Shown here one piece after another: positions 7,574 to 64,000 of a DNA stretch of 64,000 bases. Source of the DNA: Escherichia phage arall; sequence record MN850584.1; one strand, given 5' to 3'. The notes below the pieces were generated by a model, which saw only the letters and a program-made list of their open reading frames with translations, did no database searches and was not told where the DNA came from. A program made the translations under genes and the position numbers. Each line of letters starts with the position of its first letter. Position 1 is the first letter of the stretch.

Positions 7574-7580
7574 CAAAAAA

Positions 7581-7603
7581 GGGCGCAATAAGCGCCCTTT
7601 TAG
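7581..7603 (+). terminator. Rho-independent terminator (GGGCGC-AATAA-GCGCCC + TTTT)
   Basis: GC stem + T-run. Confidence 0.7.
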
Positions 7604-7692
7604 CTTATATAGAGGCTTGTTACCCATAGGCAATGGTAACGCCAGGATAAGCCTATAAATCAACGTTAAACGGCTTTACAGGAGCTTTAAAA

Positions 7693-25020: not shown

Positions 25021-25027
25021 CACATAA

Positions 25028-25049
25028 ACCCGCTTCGGCGGGTTTTCTT
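25028..25049 (+). terminator. Rho-independent terminator, identical to 111-133
   Basis: ACCCGC-TTCG-GCGGGT + TTTCTTG. Confidence 0.75.
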
Positions 25050-25316: not shown

Positions 25317-25396
25317 ATGACTTTATTAGAGAGTATCGTAGTGTTAATCATCTTTATCATTGTTGTCATAGGATATTTTACAGAAGACTAAAATAA

Positions 25397-25429
25397 AGCC
25401 CCTAGAATCGCTTCTAGGGGCTTTTGTTT
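25397..25429. terminator. Bidirectional terminator hairpin (11-bp stem AGCCCCTAGAA/TTCTAGGGGCT) at convergence of + and - blocks
   Basis: Long perfect stem, T-runs on both sides. Confidence 0.7.
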
Positions 25430-25491: not shown

Positions 25492-25749
25492 TTAAGAATG
25501 CATAAAATCTTCTTCAGGGCAGGTTGAGAGATAAGAGATGCACGTTGGGACAACAACAACATTATCTTTAAGGTTTGCAACCAAGCCTTTTGTGATTCCA
25601 GCCACTGCCCCGTTAATATCTGCTTGACGGATACCAAAACCTTGTTGTGCGGATAGATAACAAAATCCCTCACCTTTCTGTTGATTATTATTGAAGTAAT
25701 AAACGTAGTGCATCATAAAATGGTCTTTAACGATTTGTTCTGTGGTCAT
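25492..25749 (-). CDS. Hypothetical protein (85 aa)
   Basis: RBS AGGAGA; last gene of minus block. Confidence 0.5.
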   Translation of the reverse strand: MTTEQIVKDHFMMHYVYYFNNNQQKGEGFCYLSAQQGFGIRQADINGAVAGITKGLVANLKDNVVVVPTCISYLSTCPEEDFMHS

Positions 25750-25760
25750 AATATTCTCCT

Positions 25761-25785
25761 ATAAGAAAAGGGGCTTTCGCCCCTT
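25761..25785 (-). terminator. Hairpin AAAGGGGC-TTTC-GCCCCTT, one of three identical copies
   Basis: GC stem with flanking T/A runs; same 20-mer at 37056 and 50147. Confidence 0.6.
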
Positions 25786-25792: not shown

Positions 25793-26605
25793 TTACTTAG
25801 TCAAATGATCTTCTATCATTTTTATGAAAGCAGGATTGCTAAAAGCATCTGCTGCCTTTTCTCTGTAAACAAAGACTCCTCTATCTTCGTAAAGAAGAGT
25901 TTCTTCGTAATTAATTCCTGGGTTAACAACAATCATTTTTGTACCCATATTAAGTGCAGGGAATAATTCCCAATTAAAATTGATAACTTGGTTTGAACAT
26001 CCTACTACAACAACCAAATCTTGCATGGTCAAAGTATCAAACAAGTGAGCCATATCTGCATACAAAGGTGCAGCCTCACCAAAAAATACAACATTAGGCT
26101 TCACCCAGTTATAATCATCTATGTTTATACTATTGTAACCAATATCTACCAGTGTTTTGTAATCTCCAGGATGCATACGGTAAACTACTTCAGGAAGATA
26201 CCCGTGCACGTGAATAACAGAATCCCTGTCCACACCTGCTCGCTCTAGTAGATCATCAACGTTTGTTGTCAAGTTTACTACTTGGTTAGGATATTCCTTA
26301 AACCACTTTGCTATTTGAATATGTGCAGCATTAGGTTGTACATCTTTAAGCTCAACACGTCTTTTGTTATAAAATTCGTGTGTTTTGGCATACAAGTCCA
26401 TACCGTTCTCGTCTACACCACCGACCACTGGAAGATCTGGAGATGTTCTCACACGATAACCTGCTTGGAAAGCTCCAATATCGCAGACCTCTTCTAAGTC
26501 ATATTCTTCCCATAAGGCACGACCACTATCTGTGTCTGTTCGGAACGTTCGAATCCCACTGTCTGCACTTAAACCTGCGCCACTAACAAAAATTACTCTT
26601 CGCAT
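25793..26605 (-). CDS. Sir2 (sirtuin)-family protein, Zn-ribbon-less
   Basis: GAGLSADSGIRTFR (sirtuin GAGxSxxSGIPxFR), TTNVDDL (TQNID), HVHG catalytic His, VVFFGE; no Cys4 Zn module; RBS AAGAGGA. Confidence 0.8.
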   Translation of the reverse strand: MRRVIFVSGAGLSADSGIRTFRTDTDSGRALWEEYDLEEVCDIGAFQAGYRVRTSPDLPVVGGVDENGMDLYAKTHEFYNKRRVELKDVQPNAAHIQIAKWFKEYPNQVVNLTTNVDDLLERAGVDRDSVIHVHGYLPEVVYRMHPGDYKTLVDIGYNSINIDDYNWVKPNVVFFGEAAPLYADMAHLFDTLTMQDLVVVVGCSNQVINFNWELFPALNMGTKMIVVNPGINYEETLLYEDRGVFVYREKAADAFSNPAFIKMIEDHLTK

Positions 26606-26616: not shown

Positions 26617-27162
26617 TTAGTAATCATCATCCCAAGAAGATGCGTCGTAACGCTCTTCCTCTTCGAAATCCCAATTAATTTCTACTCCAAAATCTAAAAA
26701 CAATTTAACAATGTTTTCTGTAGAGTAGTATTTATCATAAGCATTAGCTAGTTCCCAATACTTGTCACTCAATTTTTTATATTTAGGATCATTATAGTCA
26801 TAATCTACTTTATAACCATAATCATACATCTCTTGTTTAGCTTTAAGCATAGCTTCTGGTGTAAGAAGATTAGGGAACGGACGATTTCTTTCTTTTAACT
26901 TAGAAGCAATCCAGTTTGCAACATTCGCCACTTCACCATCTCGATTATCACCTAAACAACTTGCATAATCTCCATCTTCGTAAGTGCCTAAATCCCCACA
27001 GACCACATGTACAATACTTGAATACGATCCACACGTTTCACAATCTGAAAAAGTGTCTACTGTTGTAATATCAATAGATAAAACTGGTAAAGCCATAGCT
27101 TCTTTCACACAAGCCTCCTCATATAATAACATATCATCAAAACCCATATATCCTCCACACAA
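26617..27162 (-). CDS. Highly acidic, Tyr/Asp-rich hypothetical protein (181 aa)
   Basis: ORF in operon; composition only. Confidence 0.55.
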   Translation of the reverse strand: MCGGYMGFDDMLLYEEACVKEAMALPVLSIDITTVDTFSDCETCGSYSSIVHVVCGDLGTYEDGDYASCLGDNRDGEVANVANWIASKLKERNRPFPNLLTPEAMLKAKQEMYDYGYKVDYDYNDPKYKKLSDKYWELANAYDKYYSTENIVKLFLDFGVEINWDFEEEERYDASSWDDDY

Positions 27163-27164: not shown

Positions 27165-27185
27165 AAAGCCCCTGATTGGGGCTTT
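27165..27185 (-). terminator. Intergenic hairpin AAAGCCCC-TGATT-GGGGCTTT (weak terminator/attenuator)
   Basis: 8-bp GC stem; poor T-run. Confidence 0.4.
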
Positions 27186-27201
27186 GGTTAAGTTTTATGG
27201 A

Positions 27202-27813
27202 TTATACCAGACTTTTAAGGTACTTGTCAAGGGCTTCTTGATCACCTTGACAAACATAGCAACGGAAGTCTTGAGCAGAAGGTTCTTTGTCCTCGTCCCA
27301 ATCCCAATAAACAGTACCTTTATAACGTGAACCTGGGAACTCGAAATATGCCACATGAGTAATATGGTGTGGGCCACCCCAAAATTCTGTAAAAGTAAAT
27401 TGAGGATACGCTGCTTTAACTGTATTCTCAAACCAAGTTTTACGATCTAATGCTTCGTTTATAAAATAAGCATGGCGTTCCATTTCATCCCAATCTTTCC
27501 AAACGCATTTTTCATCCAGAGAAAAAACAAAATCTTCACTGTTAAAATCGTCTGTATCTGATTCCAAAATATCATAATCATGTGCACTAGGTATCCACCA
27601 TCCAGCTTCTAATAGTGCTTTTGCAGGTACAAAACCTTTTTCAGCATATTGATCAAATTCTTTTACTCTACGTACAGTGCAGTATTCATCTTCACCACCA
27701 ATGTCCAGCAGACAAGCACCTTTGCGTCTTGCTGCAAGACCATGTGTATCAAAAACTACAACACTACCTTCACCATCTTCACGATCTACTTGATATGCAA
27801 CTTTTTGAGTCAT
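27202..27813 (-). CDS. Hypothetical protein (203 aa)
   Basis: ORF with ATG; no recognised motifs. Confidence 0.55.
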   Translation of the reverse strand: MTQKVAYQVDREDGEGSVVVFDTHGLAARRKGACLLDIGGEDEYCTVRRVKEFDQYAEKGFVPAKALLEAGWWIPSAHDYDILESDTDDFNSEDFVFSLDEKCVWKDWDEMERHAYFINEALDRKTWFENTVKAAYPQFTFTEFWGGPHHITHVAYFEFPGSRYKGTVYWDWDEDKEPSAQDFRCYVCQGDQEALDKYLKSLV

Positions 27814-27814: not shown

Positions 27815-27952
27815 TTACCCCCAATGTATATGGGAAATTAACCAAAAGATAAATTCCCAAAAACACCAACCAAGAAAAGTTAATGGAATTATAAAAGCTA
27901 TCAGAGCAGTCTTCCAGCCTTTCCACAATGTTTCCACTATTCCTCCATACAT
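27815..27952 (-). CDS. Possible small membrane protein (45 aa) filling Dcm-27813 gap
   Basis: Hydrophobic ORF exactly spanning intergenic gap; weak RBS. Confidence 0.3.
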   Translation of the reverse strand: MYGGIVETLWKGWKTALIAFIIPLTFLGWCFWEFIFWLISHIHWG

Positions 27953-28926
27953 TTAAGAATATGTGCAATGACAGGTATAGTCCAACCGTTGCCTAACATC
28001 TTATATGCTTGTGTGTTACTACTCACTTTAAAGTAATCATCTGGAACACCTTGTAAGCGGCAACACTCTTTAACCGTTAACTTTCTGTAATGTACGCCTT
28101 CACTCAATTTTTCAAAGGCATCTAGATATCTTCCAGGTGGAATGTAAGCTAATAGTACGTCTTTCGGCACAGTCGTGAGGCAACGAGTTTTTTCACTGTC
28201 CTGAACTTCCAAACAATGTACCAAACGATCAGTTTTAGATGTACTACGTTTGCCATTCTCATTAATTCTACGCCCATATATTGCTGCCGGATAAAAAACC
28301 AGTTGTCTGCGACTCTTTTCAAAATACTGTTCTATATTACCACCTTTGGCATAATTTGCATCTATGCAATAAGCCTTATCTCTGTCTACAATACTATCAT
28401 CTTCAATAATATCTTGCAACACTTCATTGGTAATCTCCCAGGGTTTTATTTCCCAGTTGCACCAGTATAAACGTTGTCTATTCTGTGCCGTGAAATCTGC
28501 GGAGTTAATGAATACGGGATCAACACCTAAGTAACTTGTGATCACGTTTTCCCACTCCACTTTCATCTTAACGTTTTCAAGCATGAACTTAACATTAGGA
28601 TTAAACTTTTTAATATGTTCAAGAATTTCAACATATTCGAAGAATAGCTTAGATCGCGGATCTTGAAAGTTCAAACCCTTACCAGAAGAAGAGAAGCCTT
28701 GACACGGACTACCACCTAACAAAAGATCAATTTCTCCCCACGGGATATCCCATTCTCTCCATTTTGTAACATCACCTAACTGAATAATATCTGGAAAATT
28801 TGCTTGGCTTTCAGCTATGGCAAATTTGTCTAATTCTGAAGCATAATATGTATCTACTTCAATACCTGCACTTTTTAGCGCAAGCATTCCTCCTGACATA
28901 CCATCAAAAAGACTTAAAACTTTCAT
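27937..28926 (-). CDS. DNA (cytosine-5)-methyltransferase
   Basis: Motif I LFDGMSGG, motif IV GSPCQGFS, motif VI ENV, C-terminal NGWTIPV-like block. Confidence 0.85.
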   Translation of the reverse strand: MKVLSLFDGMSGGMLALKSAGIEVDTYYASELDKFAIAESQANFPDIIQLGDVTKWREWDIPWGEIDLLLGGSPCQGFSSSGKGLNFQDPRSKLFFEYVEILEHIKKFNPNVKFMLENVKMKVEWENVITSYLGVDPVFINSADFTAQNRQRLYWCNWEIKPWEITNEVLQDIIEDDSIVDRDKAYCIDANYAKGGNIEQYFEKSRRQLVFYPAAIYGRRINENGKRSTSKTDRLVHCLEVQDSEKTRCLTTVPKDVLLAYIPPGRYLDAFEKLSEGVHYRKLTVKECCRLQGVPDDYFKVSSNTQAYKMLGNGWTIPVIAHILKCMEE

Positions 28927-29396: not shown

Positions 29397-29424
29397 ACAA
29401 AAAACCCGCCGAAGCGGGTTTATA
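29397..29424 (-). terminator. Terminator hairpin AACCCGC-CGAA-GCGGGTT with T-run on minus strand, followed by TTGACA
   Basis: Variant of 111-133 family; internal terminator/promoter junction in minus block. Confidence 0.6.
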
Positions 29425-29682: not shown

Positions 29683-30203
29683 ACAACCTCCTCGTAGTTG
29701 TTATTGTGTTTTACTGTCTCAACATACAATAAAGATTCCATCTGTAATACATTACCAGAAATAATAAACCCGTAAGCCATTTCAGATGTGTCTATATCAT
29801 ATGCCCCGTCTTCCGGTTTAGCAAAGTGTAAAACTATTTCATCTGGGTTTTCTTCATCCCATAGTTTAGAAATTTTCCGAACCAGAATGTTAGCTAAAAT
29901 AGTTGACATTCGGGATAAAGCTGTATCCTCGTATCTTTTAAAACCTAACCAATAGAGGTTAAGAATTTCTACTTCTTCTTGTGTTAAGTTTTTGTCTAAA
30001 GTAATCAGATCTGTAGGATACATCGTTTTTGTTGAACCTACTGTTACAAAACCTGGAGTGTTATGAAAAACAATCTTAACTTTATCACGTATAAAGTTTA
30101 AACCTTGTGCCTCAACTATATATTGTATTGTAGGTACAATATCGTTTGTTACATCAATAAAACTATCTTTAATGACGCTTATATTATTTCTGGACAAGAC
30201 CAT
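29679..30203 (-). CDS. Hypothetical protein (174 aa)
   Basis: ORF, overlapping stop/start. Confidence 0.55.
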   Translation of the reverse strand: MVLSRNNISVIKDSFIDVTNDIVPTIQYIVEAQGLNFIRDKVKIVFHNTPGFVTVGSTKTMYPTDLITLDKNLTQEEVEILNLYWLGFKRYEDTALSRMSTILANILVRKISKLWDEENPDEIVLHFAKPEDGAYDIDTSEMAYGFIISGNVLQMESLLYVETVKHNNNYEEVV

Positions 30204-30762
30204 TCTCCTCTAAAATAGGCTTAATAAATTCGAAAATTTGTTTTTTACTTTTATCTCGAATATTAAAACAAGGAACATTAAACTTTTTAGCCAACATCCA
30301 AGCTGTTCTTGTACCACCTAAAGGATCTCCATTTTTATCTGTATTTGCACAAGCTAAAAGAAAACAAGATGGTTTTGGATTCTCAAGATCTCTTCCAAGA
30401 ACTTGGTGGATATTTCTTTGATGTAATTTTTTAGCACCTTGAGATAATCTGTCCCAAGCTGGATGCAATTCTTTTGCATATTGCAAGGTTAGAGCATAGT
30501 TTACACTATCTGGTCTGTCAAGAACAATAACCTCTCCCTCTATTTCATTACCTTTAAACGAGAGCCAAGGGATGTATATTTCTTTCTTTGTATTGTTCCC
30601 ACTATCATATACCCCGCATTCAAATGCGGAATCTGCACCTTCTGCTTTACCAGATCGCAAAATGAACCATGTAGATAACCATTTTGCAACAGATACCATA
30701 GTATCCCATTCTTCGTCTGTAATATCTCTGCTACCAACACCTGTGTAGAATAAATCGCTCAT
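30184..30762 (-). CDS. DprA/Smf-like Rossmann-fold (SLOG-superfamily) protein
   Basis: Start at MSDLFY (RBS AAGGAG); TGVGSR ... SGKAEGAD pattern typical of DprA/LOG/SLOG nucleotide-binding folds; motif recall only. Confidence 0.4.
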   Translation of the reverse strand: MSDLFYTGVGSRDITDEEWDTMVSVAKWLSTWFILRSGKAEGADSAFECGVYDSGNNTKKEIYIPWLSFKGNEIEGEVIVLDRPDSVNYALTLQYAKELHPAWDRLSQGAKKLHQRNIHQVLGRDLENPKPSCFLLACANTDKNGDPLGGTRTAWMLAKKFNVPCFNIRDKSKKQIFEFIKPILEENGLVQK

Positions 30763-30772
30763 GGTTTTCTCC

Positions 30773-31093
30773 TTAACAAGTAATATTGGGAGTAACAATT
30801 GGATTAACAATTGGAGTAATAGGGTACGTAAACCAAGGGCTTCCAATTTCCCAAGGATAATAAGGTCTACGAGGATCGTATGGAGGAGTTACTTCAGGCT
30901 TTTTCCAAATCTCCGCTAATTGTTTCTTCCATTTATCCCTTGCTGTCTCATTATCTTCATCCAACTGTTCATCATTATCTTTTATTTCTGGTTTTGGAAA
31001 TAAAAGCTCTTTGACTAATTCAACATCTTCCGTCTCAATAGTAGTTTCTTTCGTAAGTTCTCCTACTGTTTCTTTAATTGTGATTTTATACAT
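30773..31093 (-). CDS. Pro/Glu-rich hypothetical protein (106 aa)
   Basis: ORF. Confidence 0.5.
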   Translation of the reverse strand: MYKITIKETVGELTKETTIETEDVELVKELLFPKPEIKDNDEQLDEDNETARDKWKKQLAEIWKKPEVTPPYDPRRPYYPWEIGSPWFTYPITPIVNPIVTPNITC

Positions 31094-31839
31094 TAGTCCT
31101 CCTCTAAAGTAGAATAAAATTGTAACGTATTTGAATCATCAAAATATGCAAAGGTTAAATTACCATTGAAGCAAGATCCTGTGTCCATATATACCCTATT
31201 ACTGCTAATCACAGGTTTAGGAACATAAGAATGCCCGTGAAATACATAATCTACTCCTGAAACCCTAGGAAGAAGAATCCCTTCAAGTGCGCAATCTATC
31301 ATATCACGATCCCACATTAAAGATTCTGTGAATTGAGAAACTTGCTCTTTATTCATATTCAAACAAAATGGCAAAACTTCTGTCACTGGTAAATGTTCCA
31401 AAACTGAAGGATACCCACCGTGAATAAAGCCTAGTTTCATATTACGATAATTGACAACAAGTACAACAGGTAAATCTTCTAGCATCAAAGCAAGAGCAGT
31501 TGCACCCTCTTCTCCACACTCGTCTAGAACTGTATGGCCTCCGTTCTGAAACCAACATTCGTAATATCGTCTATCACCTTCTAACAACCCTTTAATCATC
31601 ATATCTTCATGATTTCCACGAATACCATAACGATTTAGCTTTCTGGTGAATTCAACAACACAACGAAAATTCTGCTTGCCGCGATCTGTAAGATCTCCTA
31701 AAGATACAACAACATCTTGATCTCGGATACCTAAAGTATTAACACCTTTCTGGTACAAATCAAAGCAACCATGTAAATCACCAATAATAAACAGGTCTTG
31801 ATCATCTTTTACACTAATTTCTTGATATACTAACATCAA
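31093..31839 (-). CDS. Calcineurin-like metallophosphatase (Ser/Thr protein phosphatase family)
   Basis: GDLHG, GDLTDRG, GNHE motifs. Confidence 0.8.
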   Translation of the reverse strand: MMLVYQEISVKDDQDLFIIGDLHGCFDLYQKGVNTLGIRDQDVVVSLGDLTDRGKQNFRCVVEFTRKLNRYGIRGNHEDMMIKGLLEGDRRYYECWFQNGGHTVLDECGEEGATALALMLEDLPVVLVVNYRNMKLGFIHGGYPSVLEHLPVTEVLPFCLNMNKEQVSQFTESLMWDRDMIDCALEGILLPRVSGVDYVFHGHSYVPKPVISSNRVYMDTGSCFNGNLTFAYFDDSNTLQFYSTLEED

Positions 31840-39383: not shown

Positions 39384-39395
39384 TTAATTTCCCCT

Positions 39396-40265: not shown

Positions 40266-40273
40266 ACTCCTCC

Positions 40274-53730: not shown

Positions 53731-53754
53731 AGCCCCCGAAGGGGCTTTATTTCT
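53731..53754. terminator. Hairpin AGCCCC-CGAA-GGGGCT + TTATTTCTT
   Basis: GC stem; T-run is on + strand though flanking genes are on -. Confidence 0.45.
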
Positions 53755-54476
53755 TAAGCAATGATTGCTGCGATATTAGGTTTAACAAAGGTAGATGGTT
53801 TCATAATTTTACCTTTGTCATCAAAGAATACGTACACCTTTTGAACTTCGTTATATACAGCATGTACCCCAGTATAAGAACCTTCTGCACGATCTTTGCT
53901 TCGCATCTCGATAGCATCGCACTCTTTTTCAAGAGCTTCAATAATATCCTTAGTTTCCCAAATAGCCAGGAGTTGCTTCTTGGTAGGATACTTGGACTCA
54001 TTGCTATTCAACACTTCACGCATAACCTTCTTCTCGTTATAAACAGAACGCACCAAAGTATCTCGTGCCATACGGGTAAGTGTAAGAGACATTAAGGCAA
54101 ATTGCAAGTCATTTTCTACCATTTTATCAAATTCAATGATAACATCGTAAATGTTTTCTGCCAGAACATCTCCTGTCGGCATTTCCAGAGCTTTATCAAC
54201 ACCTTCTTTACCAAAGAACATAAATGCCAGGTAGGATGCTACCACAAAAATATCTGCTGCTGCATCAAGTAATTCAACGTGATCATTTTCCTGTGCTGCT
54301 GCTTGAAACTCTTTAAGTTCTTCTCGTACAAAAGAAAGTTGAGCTTCAAACATCTCTTGAGTAAATTCTGGAGTTACTCCACCGCGTGCCTTAGCATTCC
54401 AAGCAACAATTTGATCGGCAGCTTTGATAAAGAAGCTATTGTCCACTTTTACTTGTTTGAAAAAATTCTCGATCAT
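53754..54476 (-). CDS. Hypothetical protein, possibly all-alpha NTP pyrophosphohydrolase (MazG-like)
   Basis: Spaced acidic residues in helices (ELKEF...ELLDAAADI); weak. Confidence 0.3.
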   Translation of the reverse strand: MIENFFKQVKVDNSFFIKAADQIVAWNAKARGGVTPEFTQEMFEAQLSFVREELKEFQAAAQENDHVELLDAAADIFVVASYLAFMFFGKEGVDKALEMPTGDVLAENIYDVIIEFDKMVENDLQFALMSLTLTRMARDTLVRSVYNEKKVMREVLNSNESKYPTKKQLLAIWETKDIIEALEKECDAIEMRSKDRAEGSYTGVHAVYNEVQKVYVFFDDKGKIMKPSTFVKPNIAAIIA

Positions 54477-54485
54477 TGTTTCTCC

Positions 54486-54665
54486 TTATTTAAAATATTG
54501 TTCTAACAAAACACTAATGCGAACTACCGATTCGCCCATATACGCCCCAGCACAGAGGAAAACAACAAATCTACAAAAATTGCAGTACCATTTGTCCACT
54601 GGAAACGAGGCTAACATTATAATTGCAATAGCAATTAACATCATAAGAACTGTTACTAATACCAT
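54486..54665 (-). CDS. Small membrane protein (59 aa)
   Basis: RBS AAGAGG, two hydrophobic segments; fills 200-bp gap. Confidence 0.5.
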   Translation of the reverse strand: MVLVTVLMMLIAIAIIMLASFPVDKWYCNFCRFVVFLCAGAYMGESVVRISVLLEQYFK

Positions 54666-54673
54666 ATTACCTC

Positions 54674-55789
54674 TTACTCTGCTGGTTCCCAAGTACCTGG
54701 AATCATCTTACGTAAACGGACACCTGTTGGTTTCGTAGGTATTCCACCATCGGAAAACTCTTCATACTCAATCTCAACAAATTTACCAATTAACATTTCA
54801 GCATTTTCTGCTTTACGATAGTTAATAGTTTCGTCTGAATCCTTACGCATCAGGAATTCGACTACTTTACCATTTTCCATCTCTCCTGTCAATACCCCGT
54901 CACCATTTTTATCACGCTTTGCACTTACCACTTTAACTTCAAGCGTCTGGCGTGGTTTACGTTTAATAACATCATAAGAACGTTTATCAAATTCGTAAAC
55001 ACCTTTTGCATTACGATACACCACACCTTCCGCTTTCTCACGTAGAGCTTTTGCATAGAAAGCATCAAACTGTTCTTGGTTTTCAATGTACTCTGTATGT
55101 ACTACACAAATAAGTTCATCTAAACCTTTGTCTTCAACAACTTCTTTTAGAGCAGCCAAAACTTGAACCCTCTTCTCAAATGGTACAGATGCCACAGGAA
55201 CATCATATACATAGTATTTAAGAAGTGGTGTGTTAGCATTATGCTTTTTCCACGCACTATTAATTTGTTGAAGGCTAAGAACACCCAAGCCAGCAAAAAC
55301 TTCACCGTCAAGAGGATGACCAACTACTTCTTTAATAAAGGTTGGAATTTCTTCCCAGTGAGGTGGAAGTTTATATACCTCCCCAGCTTTAGATAAACAT
55401 TCACCTTGCATGTTAATCATTGAACGTAGACCATTCAATTTATATTGTGCATAACCTGGGAACAAAACACGGTCAGCATAATCTTTATAATCCTGACATT
55501 TCATGGGTGTGGAAGGAACATGGTTTTCAGCTTCCTCTTTTGTTTTATAGTACCCATTCTTAAGTTGCTTTGTCCATTTGGCAAGAGCTTCTATTTCAGC
55601 TTGTTCTTCTGCTGTTGTTTCATTTGAGCGACCAATATTTTTAGGTTCTGCCGTATAAGATTTGCTAGTGATCTTTCCACCTAATTGACCATGAGCAACA
55701 GTTACAACACTACCTTCGGTATAGACTGACCACTGTCTAATTTTACCTGTAGAAGTTTTACCATATAATGTAGGATTAGTTTGTTTCAT
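54674..55789 (-). CDS. ATP-dependent DNA ligase-like nucleotidyltransferase
   Basis: Start at MKQTNP (RBS GGAGG); KLNGLR (motif I variant), LDGEVF (III), EGVVYR (IV), VIKRK (V), C-terminal OB-like region. Confidence 0.6.
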   Translation of the reverse strand: MKQTNPTLYGKTSTGKIRQWSVYTEGSVVTVAHGQLGGKITSKSYTAEPKNIGRSNETTAEEQAEIEALAKWTKQLKNGYYKTKEEAENHVPSTPMKCQDYKDYADRVLFPGYAQYKLNGLRSMINMQGECLSKAGEVYKLPPHWEEIPTFIKEVVGHPLDGEVFAGLGVLSLQQINSAWKKHNANTPLLKYYVYDVPVASVPFEKRVQVLAALKEVVEDKGLDELICVVHTEYIENQEQFDAFYAKALREKAEGVVYRNAKGVYEFDKRSYDVIKRKPRQTLEVKVVSAKRDKNGDGVLTGEMENGKVVEFLMRKDSDETINYRKAENAEMLIGKFVEIEYEEFSDGGIPTKPTGVRLRKMIPGTWEPAE

Positions 55790-55979
55790 CTTTAACCTCC
55801 AGTTGCGAAAGAACCCATTTAGCCATTTCAATTTCACCGTGTAGTCTGCCTAGTTCATAGGCATCATCAATATTACCACCAGTGTAATCATCCACCATAA
55901 AGTAAGGATCTTCACTACTGTTAGGCGCGTTTGCAATTCTCGTTAGTTCTTCAATAAATGTCATAGTTAACCTTACCAA
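55776..55979 (-). CDS. Hypothetical protein (67 aa)
   Basis: ORF. Confidence 0.5.
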   Translation of the reverse strand: MVRLTMTFIEELTRIANAPNSSEDPYFMVDDYTGGNIDDAYELGRLHGEIEMAKWVLSQLEVKDETN

Positions 55980-56197
55980 TTATACACAAGAGTTTGAATT
56001 TGTTCCATCAAATCTTCAAGATCTGTATCAACATATTCAGAAGATGTTGCCATAAAGTATGTAATCATTGTGAACCCTTCCGAAGAAAGGGCATCAAGGA
56101 TATCATTAAACATATCTTCCATTTCAGTATTCTCACCAAATGAGAATAACATTTGTTGATCTTCGCTTACACCTTTAACATAGATAGCTGTACTCAT
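55973..56197 (-). CDS. Hypothetical acidic protein (74 aa)
   Basis: ORF. Confidence 0.5.
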   Translation of the reverse strand: MSTAIYVKGVSEDQQMLFSFGENTEMEDMFNDILDALSSEGFTMITYFMATSSEYVDTDLEDLMEQIQTLVYNW

Positions 56198-56200
56198 ATA

Positions 56201-56521
56201 TTAATCCTTAAGACGTTCATTTAAATCTGCAATAACATCACCTAAATCTTCACATTCCAGCGTTAACTCTGAAACTTGTCCACTCAAATAAGAAACTTCT
56301 TCGTTTAGATCTGAAATAATGTTTTCTAATGAATCTACTTGGTCATCATATGCACGTTTTGTTTCTTCAAGTTCTTCCGTAAGATCATTAATCAAACGGA
56401 GCAAAGATAAGATATAGCCGTCTCCTGTCTCGTTCCTCCACTCACTTCCATAGCGATAAATAATAATTTTACCATCATCGACTACTGTAAAATACTTACC
56501 TTTACCAGAATAAATTTCCAT
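56201..56521 (-). CDS. Coiled-coil hypothetical protein (106 aa)
   Basis: ORF. Confidence 0.5.
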   Translation of the reverse strand: MEIYSGKGKYFTVVDDGKIIIYRYGSEWRNETGDGYILSLLRLINDLTEELEETKRAYDDQVDSLENIISDLNEEVSYLSGQVSELTLECEDLGDVIADLNERLKD

Positions 56522-56530
56522 AAATTCTCC

Positions 56531-56935
56531 TTATTGTAGCTTAAGTGAACTGCGAAGACGTTTCTCTTGCTGATCACGAATATGTTGTGGAACCTCATGA
56601 ATTGAGTCGTTACCGTGCCTATTTTCAACAACTAAAGAGATAACTTGATAACCAAACTCTTCAGCAAGAGTTAAATAAGGTTTAAGTTCTTTCTCTGTGG
56701 TTGAAGTGTTAGAGACAATAATCTTTTTAATATTAGATGCCATAGCATCACGAACAATACTCTGACACCATGCGTGGGCTTTACCTACATTTTCTGGCTT
56801 CCAATCGTAAACACCCCTTTCTGTGTAATGGTATTGATCTGCCTCACAGATAGGCCAATAACCTTCAGAAATAATTTCTGCTACTGTAGATTTACCTGCA
56901 CCTGAAACACCACGTAAAATGATAAGTTGTTTCAT
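56531..56935 (-). CDS. P-loop polynucleotide kinase (Pnk kinase-domain-like)
   Basis: IILRGVSGAGKST (Walker A), IIVSNT; parallels recalled T4 Pnk kinase domain. Confidence 0.65.
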   Translation of the reverse strand: MKQLIILRGVSGAGKSTVAEIISEGYWPICEADQYHYTERGVYDWKPENVGKAHAWCQSIVRDAMASNIKKIIVSNTSTTEKELKPYLTLAEEFGYQVISLVVENRHGNDSIHEVPQHIRDQQEKRLRSSLKLQ

Positions 56936-57868
56936 TTAGCCTCCAAAGAAGTTTTCTATTTCTTTACGTCGCTCTTGTGGAGCTAGAGCAGCCCATTGAA
57001 CCTTCGTAAAATTATTTCGAAGCCATTCTATCAAAGTATAATATTCTTCGTCAACAATTTGTTTAGCATTATTTGGGTTGTCCCAAATCATATCCCACTT
57101 CTTATTACCACCACGCATAAGGAACTTCTTAGCAAGATAGTATGGTGACTTAATTTTTAAGAGTAAGTTAAACGGGTAGTTTGTTTCACGAACAACAAAG
57201 CCTTCGTGTCTACAATGTTTAGACATTTCAACAACATCTGAAAATTTAATCATCGGATAAACTTCAGGACGTTTAAATTTTGTAATAGATGCAATCCCAT
57301 CAAGAACACCTTCAGGTAACATGAAACTTGTCCCATCAAGATTTTGAATTCTTGCTCCAATTAAGTATGCGCCTGGTTCTTCTTCGACAATATGTGGATC
57401 AGAAGGATCACAGATTTCAAAAAGGAAAGTTGCTTTTGCACTTTCTGTCCACTTAATGAAATACTCTATGTCATCACACTCGGAAACAATACGGTTCTTG
57501 GCAATAGTTGCAAAGTCTGACTCTAGGCTCCCTGTTGTTGATACAACAAGTTTCCCTTTGTACACACCTACAGATGCCATAAAACCGTTTACTTTACGGA
57601 CAGCATCTACAAATTCATCTCCTGGAAGATCTGTACCATTCTCAAAACGATTAAAGATTTTAGTAAAAGGCCAAATAACAATATTATCTTCTGAGTCAAC
57701 AACCAACCCACGACAATCTAAAAGTCGTTTGTCAACGTTCCACAAGTTATCCCAGAATACATTGTTTTTGTATTTAAGTACAGCAAGACCAGCATACTCT
57801 CCAGATTTAACTTCTTTTTTATGCACTAAACCTTTTGCAATCAGGTCATCACAATTGAACTTAGCCAC
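56936..57868 (-). CDS. RNA ligase-like nucleotidyltransferase (GTG start)
   Basis: RKVNGFMA (motif I KxNG), HEGFVVRE (motif IV), LLLKIKSPYY (motif V); RBS AAGGAG. Confidence 0.55.
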   Translation of the reverse strand: MAKFNCDDLIAKGLVHKKEVKSGEYAGLAVLKYKNNVFWDNLWNVDKRLLDCRGLVVDSEDNIVIWPFTKIFNRFENGTDLPGDEFVDAVRKVNGFMASVGVYKGKLVVSTTGSLESDFATIAKNRIVSECDDIEYFIKWTESAKATFLFEICDPSDPHIVEEEPGAYLIGARIQNLDGTSFMLPEGVLDGIASITKFKRPEVYPMIKFSDVVEMSKHCRHEGFVVRETNYPFNLLLKIKSPYYLAKKFLMRGGNKKWDMIWDNPNNAKQIVDEEYYTLIEWLRNNFTKVQWAALAPQERRKEIENFFGG

Positions 57869-57869
57869 C

Positions 57870-58421
57870 TTAATCTCCTTTGATTATCTTATGATGGTCT
57901 ACAACAATAATATCACGCTTATCCATAATAGAGATGATTTCGTCAAAATGCAAGATTTTCCCGTGTGCATCCCAACCAACATCCAACATTTTCCCATACA
58001 AATGATCAGGGAATGATCCGTGAGAGTGTCCGTGTAGCATGATTGATCCATGCCCTTGTTTATTCCAGGCAGCCATAGGGTAATGACTTAAGACGAAGAA
58101 CAATTTCTGATATTTCACTTCGTCATAATACACAACTTCTCCATACTCTGCAAGCACTTTTCTGTGTTTACTGTAATCATGGTTCCCAACACAGTAAGTA
58201 ATATCCCCTTGGAGACGGGAAGCAATCTTACGGGTATCTTCTTCAGTCCCGAAACAGAAGTCCCCAAGATGGTACATCTTTACTCCTGGTGTTGTGGCAC
58301 ATTTATTCCATGCTTCGATCAGTGCTTCTGTCATATGCTCCATATCTTCCCACGGGCGATATTCAGGAGCAAACTCTCGGATACGTTTGTGCATAAAATG
58401 CAAATCACTTGTAATAAACAT
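57870..58421 (-). CDS. Calcineurin-like metallophosphoesterase (putative RNA 3'-end healing phosphatase)
   Basis: DLHFMH, GDFCFG, GNHD, HGHSHG motifs. Confidence 0.75.
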   Translation of the reverse strand: MFITSDLHFMHKRIREFAPEYRPWEDMEHMTEALIEAWNKCATTPGVKMYHLGDFCFGTEEDTRKIASRLQGDITYCVGNHDYSKHRKVLAEYGEVVYYDEVKYQKLFFVLSHYPMAAWNKQGHGSIMLHGHSHGSFPDHLYGKMLDVGWDAHGKILHFDEIISIMDKRDIIVVDHHKIIKGD

Positions 58422-58783
58422 TAGTATAATCCCTCGCTGAATAGTTCACTGTTGTGACCATTTCTTTCGTAGTTAATTTGTTTGGCGTTATCTGCAATGA
58501 CATAAGCATCTTTGCGACTCCACCAGTTATAATACTGATCAATAAACCCTTGATTATCAGGTAAGCAAAACAGTTTATCGATCAATCCTGCATCTTTTAA
58601 AACATTAAGTTGTGCAGATAGTACAGGATTTGCATGCCTAACACAAGGAATAATTAACTCTTCACCATTGTTAAGAATATACTTGTTCGCAGCGCAGACT
58701 ATAACACGTTGAGCATAGTGATCCTCACCAATCCAAGTGAGAGGTTGGTAACAAATATCATGTTGATTAGTAGCGCACATCAA
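58421..58783 (-). CDS. Hypothetical protein (120 aa)
   Basis: ORF. Confidence 0.5.
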   Translation of the reverse strand: MMCATNQHDICYQPLTWIGEDHYAQRVIVCAANKYILNNGEELIIPCVRHANPVLSAQLNVLKDAGLIDKLFCLPDNQGFIDQYYNWWSRKDAYVIADNAKQINYERNGHNSELFSEGLY

Positions 58784-58938
58784 TTTTCTCCATACTCTTT
58801 TAGTCTATCAGCTAAAAAACTGTAATCAGGAAGTAAAAGATCATTACTCGTATCGCTCCAATTTTCTTCCTCTCTATAGATAAAATGCCCTTCATCCTCT
58901 TCTTGCTCTGACCAGACTGAGTAATGCATAACACCTAC

Positions 58939-59313
58939 TTAATAGTTAACACGTTTAATTTCAACACCATAGGATGCAATAAAATTTTCCTTAGCTAACA
59001 TATATTTACCAGCAGCAGAAGGATTTGATGTATGAACATAGATAGTTTTAAGAGCATCCCATTCACCTGCGTACAACATACATTCTACGTCTAAGAACGC
59101 ATGATATCCTTCTTGATCTTCTCCAAGATCATTATCGAAGTGTATCTCTGAAATATTATTGAAATTATCTTCATCTGAAACAAAAGATGACCAATCCCCA
59201 AAAGATTTTAACCAAATGGCATCCTCATAACCATAATCTTTAGGATCTCTTAAATCGTCTAACCAAAGAATTTTAGCCACTATCAACCCCCTTCCTGTTT
59301 CTCTTCTTTCCAA
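58939..59313 (-). CDS. Hypothetical protein (124 aa)
   Basis: ORF. Confidence 0.5.
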   Translation of the reverse strand: MERRETGRGLIVAKILWLDDLRDPKDYGYEDAIWLKSFGDWSSFVSDEDNFNNISEIHFDNDLGEDQEGYHAFLDVECMLYAGEWDALKTIYVHTSNPSAAGKYMLAKENFIASYGVEIKRVNY

Positions 59314-61315: not shown

Positions 61316-62209
61316 ATGAAAGTTAGTATTCTACATGGTGTTGACTGTTATGTTACTGATGTAGACGTTAAAGTCTTTACATTCTCTGGTGGAGAACAAC
61401 ATGTTCAACTAGATACGAATCTATCAGGTTTCAATCATGCTACAGACAGAATCTTACTCTCTTTAGAAGTAAGATCTGCTAAAGACTTGATGACTTTGGT
61501 TATGACTAAGAATGCATTGGACAATATGCTATATCATAAACCATATTGTGTTGATTTGCTCATGTTGTATGTGCCATATGCACGACAAGACAGAGTGTGT
61601 GAACCTGGGGAAGCATTCGGAGTTAAAGCATTTGCTTCTATAATTAATTCATTAAATTTCTCACGTGTTATCGTTGCTGATCCACATAGTGATGTTACTC
61701 CAGCGGTGTTTGACAGACTCTGTGTAATACCTCAAGAAGAGATTGCTTACGAAACTTTAAAGTGGAAGTTACGTATGGAGAATTTTGCTCTTGTTAGTCC
61801 TGATGGTGGTGCTCTTAAGAAAATATTTAAATTATCTAAGAAAATGTCTTTAGATGTGTTCTGTGCAGAGAAGGTTAGAGATACTGCAACAGGTGCTATT
61901 GTTCGTACAGACATTTCTGTACAGGATTTCAATAAGCGTAACCTGATGATCGTAGATGATATCTGTGACGGCGGTAGAACTTTTATTGAATTGGCTAAAG
62001 TGCTACGTGCTCGTAACGCAGGTAAGATTGAGTTATATGTTACACACGGTATCTTTTCTAAAGGTCTTAAAGAGTTAAGTGAGCACTTTGACTGCATTCA
62101 TTCTCTTAATGTGTGGGAAGATAACATCCAAGAAGATTCCGGTGTTCTTGTTAAGAATCAGTCAGATTTGCAACAACAAATTGTATCTCCATACGTGTGG
62201 AATTTTTAA
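61316..62209 (+). CDS. Ribose-phosphate pyrophosphokinase (Prs)-family protein; candidate ADP-ribose pyrophosphokinase of NARP1-type pathway
   Basis: VPYARQDRV, ADPHS, VSPDGGA, MIVDDICDGGRTFIEL...YVTHGIFSKG parallel recalled Prs; adjacent to NAMPT-like gene. Confidence 0.8.
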   Translation: MKVSILHGVDCYVTDVDVKVFTFSGGEQHVQLDTNLSGFNHATDRILLSLEVRSAKDLMTLVMTKNALDNMLYHKPYCVDLLMLYVPYARQDRVCEPGEAFGVKAFASIINSLNFSRVIVADPHSDVTPAVFDRLCVIPQEEIAYETLKWKLRMENFALVSPDGGALKKIFKLSKKMSLDVFCAEKVRDTATGAIVRTDISVQDFNKRNLMIVDDICDGGRTFIELAKVLRARNAGKIELYVTHGIFSKGLKELSEHFDCIHSLNVWEDNIQEDSGVLVKNQSDLQQQIVSPYVWNF

Positions 62210-62219
62210 ATAATAAGTG

Positions 62220-62254
62220 TTGACAATAGGGAGTATGCTTAGTAAGATACTCCC
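62220..62254 (+). promoter_or_regulatory. Sigma70-like promoter TTGACA-17-TAAGAT overlapped by palindrome GGGAGTAT-N10-ATACTCCC
   Basis: 8-bp inverted repeat spans spacer and -10. Confidence 0.55.
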
Positions 62255-62280
62255 ACACTAACAAACAAGGAGACATAACT

Positions 62281-64000
62281 ATGAATATTTTTGCACCTTT
62301 TGCTACTGATTGGTATAAACCTGGTCACAAGCAGATGTACAACCAAAATACAAAACTCATTTTCTCTAATTTAACTCCTCGTAATGATAAAAACTTTGCA
62401 CACTATGCAGATCGTGAAGCACGTGGTGTAATTGTTTTAGGTATTCGTCGAGCAGTTACTGATGCTCTTGTAACTATGTGGGATAGCTTCTTTAAAATGT
62501 CTCGTAGTGCAGCAGTAAATAAGTTTTATCGTATGTCTAAAAATGCATTAGGTGCTTCTTCTCCTTCTGCTGAATGTTGGGGAGAATTGCACGATTTAGG
62601 TTATCTTCCGCTGGAAGTTCGATCTCTGCCAGAAGGTGTTTTGTGTCCTATTGGTGTTCCTGTGTTTACTGTGCATAATACTTTAGAAAAATTCTTTTGG
62701 TTAACTAACTATGTGGAAACACTATTGTCAGATGAAACTTGGAAGACAATGACTAATGCTACAGCAGCTTTTCAGTATAAGCGTATTGCTATGGCATATG
62801 CGATGGCAACGTGTGATAATATTGATCACGTTAACTTCCAGTGTCATGATTTTAGCCTACGTGGTTTAAGTAATATTGAAGATGGTTATAAGAGTGGTAT
62901 CGCTCATTTGGCATCGTTCACAGGCACAGATAATATTCTGGCTATTGAAACTGTGCATGATTATTATGGTATTGATTATGATCAGTTTGTTGCAGGTTCT
63001 ATTCCGGCAACAGAACATTCAGTAGCAACGACTAACATTGGAGCTATTGTTGAAGATCTGAAGAAACATTTCCCACATCTTAAAGATGATGTTGATGGGC
63101 TTCGTTATGTAGCAGAGAAAGAGTTTCTTCGCCGCTATATTGAAGAAATTGTTCCAGAAGGTTTTTGTTCATATGTAGCAGATTCTTATGATTACTGGGC
63201 TGTCTTGACTCGCATTCTGGTAGAATTGAAAGAGTCCATTATGTCACGAAATGGTCGTCTTGTTATTCGTCCAGATTCAGGAGATCCGGTTAAAGTTGTT
63301 GCAGGATACAATGTTGAATCTTTTGCTAACTATGAAGACCTTTTAAATAATGGTATTGCTACAGCCACTGAAGTAGTTCATTTGGCTGATGTTAATAAGT
63401 ATTACAATGTTCTTCAGGATTGCAGTGTTGCTGATTGTATTGATGAAACTTATGAGATTCCTTATTGTGAAGCAGTAGGTTCTATTCAAATCCTTTGGGA
63501 AGTGTTTGGTGGTACTATCAACCGAAAAGGCTACAAGGTTCTTGATCAGCACATCGGTATGATTTATGGTGATTCTATTACTGTTGAACGAGAACACGAG
63601 ATCTTACGCCGACTGAAGAAGAAAGGTTTTGCAGCTTCCAATATTGTATTTGGTGTTGGTAGTTATACTTATCAGTTCAATACACGAGATACTTTTGGTT
63701 TTGCTGTTAAAGCAACAGGTAGTATCATCGGTGAACACGAAATTTTGGTAAGTAAGGAGCCTAAAACTGATCCTGGTAAACGCTCTGCAAAAGGTTTTAT
63801 TAAGGTTGTTAAGGATACAAATGGTAAACTTTCTCTTGTGGATAATCTTTCTTTTAAAGATATTCAAGATGAAGACAATGAGTTAAAAGTTATCTTCAGG
63901 GATGGTACGGTTATTACACCACAAGTAGAAGGACGTGATGAAACATTTACTGATATCCGCAACCGTGTTGATGTAGAGGTTCTTCGTACTATGGGAACCA
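62281..64000 (+). CDS. Nicotinamide phosphoribosyltransferase (NAMPT/NadV)-family protein, 3'-truncated by window; candidate nicotinamide ADP-ribose transferase
   Basis: TDWYKPGH (TDSYK), CHDFSLRG, GTDN, VIRPDSGDP, GMIYGDSIT, FGVGS. Confidence 0.8.
   Translation, partial: MNIFAPFATDWYKPGHKQMYNQNTKLIFSNLTPRNDKNFAHYADREARGVIVLGIRRAVTDALVTMWDSFFKMSRSAAVNKFYRMSKNALGASSPSAECWGELHDLGYLPLEVRSLPEGVLCPIGVPVFTVHNTLEKFFWLTNYVETLLSDETWKTMTNATAAFQYKRIAMAYAMATCDNIDHVNFQCHDFSLRGLSNIEDGYKSGIAHLASFTGTDNILAIETVHDYYGIDYDQFVAGSIPATEHSVATTNIGAIVEDLKKHFPHLKDDVDGLRYVAEKEFLRRYIEEIVPEGFCSYVADSYDYWAVLTRILVELKESIMSRNGRLVIRPDSGDPVKVVAGYNVESFANYEDLLNNGIATATEVVHLADVNKYYNVLQDCSVADCIDETYEIPYCEAVGSIQILWEVFGGTINRKGYKVLDQHIGMIYGDSITVEREHEILRRLKKKGFAASNIVFGVGSYTYQFNTRDTFGFAVKATGSIIGEHEILVSKEPKTDPGKRSAKGFIKVVKDTNGKLSLVDNLSFKDIQDEDNELKVIFRDGTVITPQVEGRDETFTDIRNRVDVEVLRTMGT

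What the first reader, a model, noticed from the sequence alone, without database searches (positions are those of the whole stretch)
25793..26605. Zn-ribbon-less Sir2-like protein in a phage operon
The sirtuin Rossmann motifs are clear (GAGxSxxSGIxxFR, TxNxD, HG, VVFFGE) but the Cys4 zinc module of canonical deacetylases is absent. In that respect it resembles the SIR2 NADase domains of defence systems. A phage carrying a potential NAD+-consuming enzyme while also encoding an NAD+-regenerating pair (61316-64000) is unexpected. It may be a protein deacylase or ADP-ribosyltransferase used in host takeover, or a superinfection-exclusion NADase.
Basis: partly seen in the sequence, partly recalled or inferred. 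Interest (0 to 1): 0.7.

Follow-up and report, generated by a model that had tools for sequence, protein, structure and literature searches.

The report
Known phage sirtuin lacking zinc ligands
This is a real CobB-like sirtuin gene of a phi92-like E. coli phage; the gene family is already annotated in nearly a thousand phage genomes and already reported to lack the zinc-binding cysteines, it does not resemble the NAD-destroying defence enzymes, and its substrate has never been tested.

Summary
The ORF (25793-26605, minus strand, 270 aa) is real. All the quoted motifs are present and there are no zinc-ligand cysteines; the only two Cys are C41 and C203.

It is 100% identical to the annotated 'putative Sir2-like protein' of Escherichia phage inny. 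It belongs to PHROG 2162, which has homologues in 983 phage records, including T5 gene T5.102.

The zinc ribbon is not missing. A module of the same length is modelled as three strands, and more distant relatives carry CxxC...CxxC at the same place. Only the ligands were lost.

The catalytic residues and the residues aligned to the CobB acyl pocket are invariant. The most likely function is therefore an NAD+-dependent lysine deacylase. The main rival is the published, untested idea of a Tpt1-like RNA 2'-phosphate remover.

The 'NAD+-regenerating pair' is PRPP synthetase plus NAMPT. It recycles nicotinamide, the sirtuin by-product, as far as NMN. Both the missing zinc ligands and the pairing with NAD+ salvage were published in 2016. 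Low novelty.

The parts
25793..26605 (-). Phage sirtuin gene (270 aa), class III/CobB-like. Catalytic H134, N115 and D117; cofactor motif G9-R22; Y79-x-x-R82; FGE at 175-177.
26095..26202 (-). Codons for residues ~135-170: the cysteine-free remnant of the zinc-ribbon module, modelled as three beta strands (E135-143, E151-154, E167-172). CobB C155 aligns to Y142.
   Evidence: In this module dN is about 1.5-1.8 times that of the whole gene. dN/dS is 0.09-0.21 where dS could be computed.
27201..27230 (-). Consensus sigma-70 promoter with an extended -10 (TTGACA-18-TGgTATAAT, 12/12 matches). It overlaps the stop codon of the upstream gene and is the likely start of the orf176-sirtuin transcription unit.
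   Evidence: This is a consensus match only; expression was not tested.
26617..27147 (-). orf176 (PHROG 9509, function unknown), co-transcribed upstream of the sirtuin with an 11-nt gap. Restricted to this phage lineage: only 5 homologue clusters were found, and it is absent upstream of the sirtuin in Klebsiella phage KP13-26.
25768..25785 (-). GC-rich hairpin followed by a T-run, 8 nt after the sirtuin stop codon (terminator-like). The small gene orf85 (25492-25749) follows, then a bidirectional terminator at 25395-25424.
61316..64000 (+). PRPP-synthetase-like gene (61316-62209) and NAMPT (62281 to the window end). Together they convert nicotinamide to NMN. Linked to the sirtuin only through chemistry (nicotinamide is the sirtuin by-product) and lies 35 kb away.
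53754..59313 (-). RNA-repair-type cassette: MazG-like, ATP-dependent DNA ligase, P-loop kinase, Rnl1-type RNA ligase, metallophosphoesterase and a cREC domain. The sirtuin gene sits inside this cassette in Proteus phage Mydo and rV5-like phages. Here it lies about 30 kb away.

Best explanation
The gene encodes an active, stand-alone NAD+-dependent sirtuin of the class III (CobB/SIRT5) type. It probably has a strong host-type promoter of its own.

Proposed mechanism:
1. An acyl-lysine on a host or phage protein enters the conserved hydrophobic tunnel.
2. Its carbonyl oxygen attacks C1' of NAD+ and nicotinamide leaves.
3. His134 activates the ribose hydroxyl, and the lysine is freed together with O-acyl-ADP-ribose.
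4. The invariant Y79-x-x-R82 pair suggests that negatively charged acyl groups such as succinyl are accepted as well as acetyl, as in CobB and SIRT5.
5. The small zinc-ribbon module keeps its fold but no longer binds zinc through cysteines.
6. The phage NAMPT plus PRPP synthetase can recycle the released nicotinamide to NMN.

Shown here: family membership, fold, conservation of the catalytic and pocket residues, and loss of the ligands. Inferred: enzymatic activity, acyl-lysine as the acceptor, and the biological purpose, which would be resetting host protein acylation early in infection.
For: - Pfam SIR2 at 81 bits. The best PDB sequence hit is E. coli CobB at E=1.5e-18.
- G9, G11, S13, R22, Y79, R82, N115, D117, H134, the FGE motif and N228 are conserved in nearly all of about 130 representative relatives.
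- CobB residues whose mutation retunes acyl specificity (A76, Y92, I131 and V187, named in the titles of PDB entries 6RXM and 6RXS), together with R95, F190 and V219, align to C41, Y79, V116, V172, R82, F175 and V207. All seven are invariant in 43 phage sequences of 56-92% identity.
- Purifying selection: dN is 0.21-0.34 with dS saturated or about 2.
- The gene sits in four different neighbourhoods in four phage lineages, with no fixed partner gene. This fits a self-sufficient enzyme.
Against: - No biochemical data exist for any member of this phage clade; four literature searches found none.
- All NCBIfam CobB/deacylase models score far below their curated cut-offs, for example 106.5 against 243 bits. 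It is not a CobB equivalog.
- In rV5-like, Mydo-like and T5-like phages the gene lies next to RNA-end-processing genes: cREC, an Rnl1-type ligase and HAD_SAK_2. This hints at a nucleic-acid substrate.
- Loss of the zinc ligands inactivates canonical sirtuins when engineered (my own knowledge, not tested here). Activity therefore cannot be assumed.
Confidence: 0.5

Rival explanations
1. RNA-repair enzyme: sirtuin chemistry applied to an RNA 2'-phosphate, as Tpt1/KptA does. The phosphate attacks NAD+ C1', nicotinamide leaves, and the ribose 2''-OH then releases RNA with a 2'-OH plus ADP-ribose 1'',2''-cyclic phosphate. This would complete repair of tRNAs cut by host anticodon nucleases. Proposed by Iyer et al. 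2022 (PMC9503650).
For: - In Proteus phage Mydo the gene order is phosphoesterase, RNA ligase, cREC, kinase, one small gene, Sir2, DNA ligase.
- In the rV5-like phage nomine the order is Rnl1, cREC, Sir2.
- In T5 a Pfam HAD_SAK_2 'Swiss Army Knife RNA repair' domain lies three genes downstream of the sirtuin.
- The window phage carries the whole cassette at 53754-59313, and a close relative has a tRNA cluster just beyond the window end.
- The two reaction chemistries are closely parallel (inference).
Against: - In this phage the sirtuin lies 30 kb from the cassette, with its own candidate promoter and terminator-like hairpin.
- In KVP40-like phages it sits beside a topoisomerase gene.
- The phyletic link is loose. 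The Rnl1-type ligase is in 657 phage records (Pseudomonas 175, Salmonella 15). The sirtuin is in 983 (Salmonella 289, Pseudomonas not among the top ten).
- The acyl-lysine tunnel residues are invariant and CobB-like, and no basic residues specific to the phage clade were seen.
- T4-type healing and sealing leaves no 2'-phosphate (textbook knowledge).
Confidence: 0.22
2. Protein (or other macromolecule) mono-ADP-ribosyltransferase used in host takeover, as with SirTM or SIRT6-type side activities.
Against: - No macrodomain partner was found among the ten neighbouring proteins scanned.
- The class III Y-x-x-R motif and the acyl pocket are strictly kept.
Confidence: 0.1
3. NAD+-depleting NADase acting in superinfection exclusion or as a toxin, like the SIR2 domains of ThsA, DSR or SIR2-HerA.
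For: His and Asn are retained, as in ThsA (my own knowledge).
Against: - No Pfam SIR2_2 hit and no credible PADLOC hit.
- There is no sensor or partner domain; the protein is 270 aa and stands alone.
- It is probably expressed from a consensus sigma-70 promoter in a strictly lytic phage that also invests in NAD+ precursor salvage.
- The ribbon module and peptide-cleft elements are retained.
Confidence: 0.05
4. Catalytically dead or decaying remnant: loss of zinc has destabilised the small domain.
For: The zinc-module remnant evolves about 1.5-1.8 times faster than the whole protein.
Against: 49 positions are invariant, including every catalytic residue, across 43 sequences. Homologues occur in 983 phage records from several phage families. 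dN is far below dS. The module is modelled with confidence, at block pLDDT 91-97.
Confidence: 0.03

Closest known systems
Phage sirtuin family PHROG 2162, VOG1363 (T5 gene T5.102; the 'distinct clade of phage sirtuins' of Iyer et al. 2022, PMC9503650)
   Same: Full-length match at E=1.3e-105. 52.8% identity to T5.102, 56% to Mydo and 48% to rV5-likes. Same Cys-free module and the same phage-specific TDTxSG insertion in the cofactor loop.
   Different: The protein of this lineage has an extra insertion of about 20 residues (roughly 50-70) in the helical small domain. The gene is not adjacent to RNA-repair genes, unlike in Mydo and rV5-likes.
Sir2/CobB of KVP40-type Vibrio phages phiSt2 and phiGrn1 (Skliros et al. 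2016, PMC5107563)
   Same: Homologous, at about 38% identity to schizoT4-like Vibrio phage proteins. The paper already reports the absent zinc ligand site, the conserved catalytic His, FxE/xNP tunnel motifs, and the link to phage NAMPT.
   Different: Different phage family and host. The Vibrio phages pair the sirtuin with NAMPT plus NMNAT, whereas here the pair is NAMPT plus PRPP synthetase.
E. coli CobB (PDB 1S5P, 6RXJ) and class III sirtuins (SIRT5, Sir2Af1, PfSir2A)
   Same: Best sequence and fold matches. Shared GIRTFR loop, Y-x-x-R motif, catalytic His, acyl-pocket residues and module length.
   Different: About 27-31% identity. No zinc-ligand cysteines (CobB C155 aligns to Y142). Below every NCBIfam CobB cut-off. 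Lacks the basic N-terminal extension of the CobB long isoform.
Defence SIR2 NADases (ThsA, DSR2, SIR2-HerA/Nezha, Avs5-SIR2)
   Same: Rossmann-type SIR2 core, and no Cys4 site.
Tpt1/KptA RNA 2'-phosphotransferase
   Same: Only a proposed functional analogy: NAD+-dependent, releases nicotinamide, passes through a 1'',2''-cyclic product.
   Different: Unrelated fold. No sequence or structural similarity was detected or expected.

Membership tests
SIR2/sirtuin family (Pfam PF02146) | Score above the Pfam gathering threshold | tested here: met
   81 bits against a cut-off of 24, E=1.3e-22
SIR2/sirtuin family (Pfam PF02146) | Rossmann cofactor motif GAGxS...GIxxFR, the N/D pair (TxNxD) and the catalytic His | tested here: met
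   G9-R22, N115/D117 and H134. Invariant in 43 phage sequences and nearly universal in about 130 representatives.
SIR2/sirtuin family (Pfam PF02146) | Sirtuin fold: Rossmann domain plus a small domain | tested here: met
SIR2/sirtuin family (Pfam PF02146) | Cys4 zinc site in the small domain (canonical deacylases) | tested here: not met
   No Cys in residues 135-172. CobB C155 aligns to Y142. The module scaffold itself is retained.
Class III sirtuins (CobB/SIRT5 type) | Y-x-x-R motif that reads acidic acyl groups | tested here: met
   Y79/R82 align to CobB Y92/R95 and are invariant
Class III sirtuins (CobB/SIRT5 type) | Closest structural and sequence neighbours are class III enzymes | tested here: met
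   CobB, Sir2Af1, PfSir2A and SIRT5 lead all the lists
Class III sirtuins (CobB/SIRT5 type) | NCBIfam CobB/deacylase equivalog cut-off | tested here: not met
   Best score 106.5 bits against a cut-off of 243. All seven models fall below their cut-offs.
Class III sirtuins (CobB/SIRT5 type) | NAD+-dependent lysine deacylase activity | not testable with these tools
   Needs an enzyme assay. No published assay for the phage clade was found.
Defence SIR2 NADases (ThsA, DSR, SIR2-HerA, Avs5) | Match to SIR2_2 or PADLOC defence profiles | tested here: not met
   No SIR2_2 hit at E<=1. PADLOC gave only PDC-S65 at E=0.0066 over 37 residues.
Defence SIR2 NADases (ThsA, DSR, SIR2-HerA, Avs5) | Fused or adjacent sensor or partner (SLOG, HerA, STAND, and similar) | tested here: not met
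   Single-domain protein of 270 aa. Neighbours are lineage-specific genes of unknown function.
SirTM ADP-ribosylating sirtuins | Operon with a macrodomain (and GcvH-L/LplA2), and SirTM-like structure | tested here: not met
Phage sirtuin clade linked to RNA repair (Iyer et al. 2022) | Sequence membership in the phage clade | tested here: met
   PHROG 2162 at E=1.3e-105. 48-56% identity to the named prototypes, rV5-like phages and Mydo.
Phage sirtuin clade linked to RNA repair (Iyer et al. 2022) | Gene neighbourhood with an RNA ligase, cREC, kinase or HAD_SAK | tested here: not met
   The cassette is present in the window but about 30 kb away, at 53754-59313. Adjacency was confirmed only in Mydo, nomine and T5.

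The most novel reading that the evidence does not exclude
The zinc-free phage sirtuin clade is not a protein deacylase. It would apply sirtuin chemistry to a non-protein acceptor, most plausibly an RNA 2'-phosphate. That would make it a Tpt1-like step in phage tRNA repair and would explain its position next to cREC, Rnl1 or HAD_SAK genes in rV5-, Mydo- and T5-like phages. It would be the first sirtuin shown to act on nucleic acid. The idea is published as a prediction (PMC9503650) but is untested.
Probability: 0.2. Interest if true: 0.7.

Novelty: already known. Interest (0 to 1): 0.27.

Why it matters
As submitted, the finding re-discovers an annotated gene. The protein is identical to a GenBank entry, and the family is in PHROGs and in the T5 genome annotation.

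What remains open is the biochemistry. A sirtuin carried by nearly a thousand sequenced phages, including the T5-like, rV5-like, phi92-like and KVP40-like groups, has never been assayed. It would be useful to know three things:
- whether it resets host protein acylation, repairs RNA, or does something else;
- whether a sirtuin can work without its structural zinc;
- whether the phage NAMPT/Prs genes exist partly to feed it.

These are ordinary, tractable experiments rather than a surprise.

Tried and rejected
1. Defence-type NADase reading. Rejected on profile evidence and structural evidence.

2. 'The zinc ribbon is absent.' Rejected. The module is retained and only the ligands are lost.

3. 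Isoelectric point as a test of RNA against protein substrate. The sirtuin is acidic (pI 4.82; family median 4.94). This does not discriminate: the median for window ORFs is 5.5, the phage RNA ligase is 5.8, cREC is 4.5 and the CobB core is 5.4, against 9.4 for KptA.

4. The upstream neighbour orf176 as a functional partner, labelled 'putative aminoacyl-tRNA synthetase' in the BASEL annotation. Its only Pfam hit is PhetRS_B1 at E=0.033. Only 5 homologue clusters exist. It is absent in KP13-26 and unrelated to the other 'aaRS-like' ORF at 32173-32745. I ran no further search on it.

5. A second 'Sir2-like' gene in rV5-like phages (nomine_199) and 'Sir2' T5.105. Both are mis-annotations: the first has no SIR2 similarity and the second is HAD_SAK_2.

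6. Whole-gene dN/dS. dS was saturated for most pairs, so only dN far below dS can be stated.

7. A literature search for an assay of any phage sirtuin found none. One search failed on a term that was too short.

8. A full genome-by-genome co-occurrence table could not be built. The search tool lists at most 60 records, so only totals per host genus were compared.

Full report
**Observation**

The window holds an ORF at 25793..26605 on the minus strand that encodes 270 aa. An AGAGGA ribosome-binding site lies 6 nt upstream of the ATG.

- G9-A-G-x-S13-x-x-S16-G-I-x-x-F21-R22
- T113-x-N115-x-D117
- H134-G135
- V172-V-F-F-G-E177

The protein has only two cysteines, C41 and C203. None lies between the catalytic His and the FGE loop, where canonical sirtuins carry their Cys4 site.

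The match to the sirtuin family is far beyond chance: Pfam SIR2 (PF02146) at 81 bits against a gathering score of 24, and PHROG 2162 'Sir2 (NAD-dependent deacetylase)' at E=1.3e-105 over the full length.

**Identity of the sequence**

The region is 99.9% identical to Escherichia phage inny (Justusliebigvirus, Stephanstirmvirinae; phi92-like). The protein is 100% identical to inny_15, deposited as 'putative Sir2-like protein'.

tblastn finds homologues in 983 phage records. They include T5 gene T5.102 (52.8% identity), Mydo-like and rV5-like myoviruses (48-56%), KVP40-type Vibrio phages (about 38%) and jumbo phages (about 30%). Most of these records already label the gene a Sir2 or NAD-dependent deacetylase.

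**What kind of sirtuin it is**

- The best solved-structure sequence hit is E. coli CobB (1S5P, E=1.5e-18). Archaeal Sir2Af and SIRT5 follow.
- An AlphaFold model built on 43 homologues is confident, with mean pLDDT 91.2 and pTM 0.88.
- The top 50 Foldseek hits in the PDB are all deacylase sirtuins. CobB leads with target-normalised TM 0.86.
- Pfam SIR2_2 does not match at all. PADLOC gives only a 37-residue match at E=0.0066.

The suggestion that the protein resembles the defence SIR2 domains is therefore not supported.

It is also not a CobB equivalog. All seven NCBIfam deacylase models score far below their curated cut-offs, for example 106.5 against 243 bits.

**The zinc module**

The segment between H134 and the FGE loop aligns to the CobB zinc module almost without gaps. 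It is modelled as three strands: 135-143, 151-154 and 167-172.

I searched 1.84 billion representative proteins and inspected this segment in each relative. The results were:
- The nearest 15 or so representative clusters have few or no cysteines in the segment; most have none.
- From E~1e-33 outward many relatives carry a canonical CxxC...CxxC.
- Those relatives have a module of the same length (33-40 residues) and the same central (D/N)IGY motif.

In the alignment with E. coli CobB, CobB C155 falls on Y142 of the window protein.

The correct description is loss of the ligands within a retained ribbon scaffold, not loss of the domain.

Selection on the module can be stated only roughly. Its dN is about 1.5-1.8 times that of the whole gene. 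dN/dS is 0.09-0.21 where dS could be computed. For the whole gene dN is 0.21-0.34 with dS saturated or about 2.

**Active site and substrate pocket**

G9, G11, S13, R22, Y79, R82, N115, D117, H134, F175-G-E and N228 are kept in nearly all of about 130 representatives.

The pocket comparison uses CobB residues whose mutation retunes acyl specificity. A76, Y92, I131 and V187 are named in the titles of PDB entries 6RXM and 6RXS. Together with R95, F190 and V219, they align to C41, Y79, V116, V172, R82, F175 and V207. All seven are invariant in 43 phage sequences of 56-92% identity.

Y79-x-x-R82 is the class III signature. In SIRT5 and CobB it reads acidic acyl groups (established knowledge of the family).

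This strict conservation of an acyl-lysine-type pocket is the main reason I favour a lysine deacylase.

**Genomic context**

The gene has what looks like its own transcription unit:
1. A perfect sigma-70 promoter with an extended -10 (27230-27201) overlaps the stop codon of the upstream gene.
2. A hairpin follows, then orf176 (27147-26617), then the sirtuin.
3. A GC hairpin with a T-run lies 8 nt after the sirtuin stop codon (25785-25768).
4. The small orf85 and a bidirectional terminator (25395-25424) close the unit.

These are consensus matches, not expression data.

orf176 has five homologue clusters in 5.8 billion proteins and is missing upstream of the sirtuin in Klebsiella phage KP13-26. 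It is not an obligate partner.

The neighbourhood differs between phage lineages:
- T5: small ORFs plus a HAD_SAK_2 'RNA repair' domain three genes downstream.
- Mydo: phosphoesterase, RNA ligase, cREC, kinase, one small gene, Sir2, DNA ligase.
- rV5-like nomine: Rnl1, cREC, Sir2.
- KVP40-like phages: small ORFs and a topoisomerase gene.

The window phage carries the complete Mydo-type cassette at 53754-59313, but without the sirtuin, which lies about 30 kb away.

**The main rival**

Iyer et al. 2022 (PMC9503650) used these neighbourhoods to predict that this 'distinct clade' of phage sirtuins removes RNA 2'-phosphates in a Tpt1/KptA-like step of RNA repair. The chemistry is an attractive parallel, and I confirmed the adjacency in two phage families.

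Several points weigh against it:
- The linkage is broken in this phage and in KVP40-type phages.
- The Rnl1-type ligase occurs in 657 phage records (Pseudomonas 175, Salmonella 15). The sirtuin occurs in 983 (Salmonella 289, Pseudomonas not among the top ten). Neither gene needs the other.
- The CobB-like acyl pocket is invariant.

I rate this rival at about 0.2. Isoelectric point, which I tried as a discriminator, is uninformative.

**NAD+ salvage**

61316-62209 is a PRPP-synthetase-like protein, and 62281 to the window end is NAMPT. This matches the annotation of the close relative EmilieFrey, where a 14-tRNA cluster follows and no NMNAT is annotated nearby.

The pair converts nicotinamide, the by-product of any sirtuin turnover, to NMN. 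It does not go all the way to NAD+.

NAMPT occurs in 2042 phage records, far more than carry the sirtuin.

The pairing is not unexpected. Skliros et al. 2016 (PMC5107563) discussed Sir2/CobB together with NAMPT/NMNAT in Vibrio phages. The same paper reported the absent zinc ligand site in phiSt2, phiGrn1 and KVP40, and named the T5 homologue.

**Verdict**

It is a sirtuin and possibly a deacylase. It is not like the defence NADases, and it is not an unexpected partner for NAD+ salvage.

The gene, the family, the missing zinc ligands and the NAD+-salvage association are all already in databases or in print. What is still unknown is the activity, since I found no assay of any member.

My estimates are: lysine deacylase 0.5, RNA 2'-phosphate remover 0.22, ADP-ribosyltransferase 0.1, NADase 0.05, inactive remnant 0.03.

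Noticed in passing
window 53754-59313 (minus strand): A complete RNA-repair-type cassette: MazG-like (53754-54476), ATP-dependent DNA ligase (54674-55837), P-loop AAA_33 kinase (56531-56935), Rnl1-type RNA ligase (56936-57868), metallophosphoesterase (57870-58421) and a cREC_REC cyclic-phosphate-processing domain (58939-59313). It is syntenic with Proteus phage Mydo, except that the Mydo sirtuin slot holds only small ORFs here.
   Followed up: partly
window 61316-64000: The 'NAD+-regenerating pair' is a PRPP-synthetase-like protein plus NAMPT, not NAMPT plus NMNAT. No NMNAT was seen in the window or in the next 4 kb of the relative EmilieFrey, so the pathway stops at NMN unless a host enzyme finishes it. 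In the relative a 14-tRNA cluster begins just beyond the window end.
   Followed up: partly
window 27165-27230, 25768-25785, 25395-25424, 25026-25045, 29402-29421: A perfect sigma-70 promoter (TTGACA-18-TGgTATAAT) is followed immediately by a GC hairpin. Near-identical hairpins recur: AAAGCCCC...GGGGCTTT, and AAACCCGCTTCGGCGGGTTT twice, 4.4 kb apart. Terminator-like sites are five times more frequent than in shuffled sequence (10 against 2.0). They may be promoter/stem-loop units that bound mobile gene cassettes.
   Followed up: no
L003 (T5) 7142-7648; L011 (phage nomine) 6776-7489: Two mis-annotations in public records. T5.105 is labelled 'Sir2 (NAD-dependent deacetylase)' but is a Pfam HAD_SAK_2 RNA-repair HAD domain (E=4e-20). 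nomine_199, 'putative Sir2-like protein', has no SIR2 similarity.
   Followed up: yes
window 31093-31839 (minus strand): A second calcineurin-like phosphoesterase (PHROG 246, NinI-like). It also matches the phosphoesterase part of PHROG 8238, annotated 'RNA ligase' and 737 positions long, perhaps a phosphoesterase-ligase fusion. It sits about 4.5 kb upstream of the sirtuin on the same strand.
   Followed up: no
window 26617-27147 and 32173-32745 (minus strand): Two small proteins called 'putative aminoacyl-tRNA synthetase' in the BASEL annotation; the second is also PHROG 4806, 'histidyl tRNA synthetase'. Pfam gives no significant support and the two are unrelated to each other. Their function is open.
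   Followed up: partly
window 38002-41263 (minus strand): Four ORFs correspond to genes annotated in the relative EmilieFrey as a dTDP-rhamnose pathway (dehydratase, thymidylyltransferase, epimerase, reductase). This is an unusual sugar-nucleotide pathway for a lytic coliphage. It rests on the relative's annotation and matching ORF sizes only.
   Followed up: no
window 25793-26605, residues ~23-26 and ~50-70: There are two insertions relative to cellular relatives. A four-residue TDTx insertion in the flexible cofactor-binding loop is shared by the T5, Mydo and phi92-like proteins. An insertion of about 20 residues in the helical small domain is seen only in the Stephanstirmvirinae proteins and is modelled with high confidence. 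C41 is invariant and aligns to the CobB pocket residue A76.
   Followed up: partly
window 27937-28926, 30184-30846, 32970-33632 (minus strand): The same early-region block holds a Dcm-like C5 cytosine methyltransferase, a DprA-like protein (PHROG 768) and a resolvase/invertase-type serine recombinase (Pfam Resolvase, E=8e-22). The recombinase is unexpected in a strictly lytic phage.
   Followed up: no
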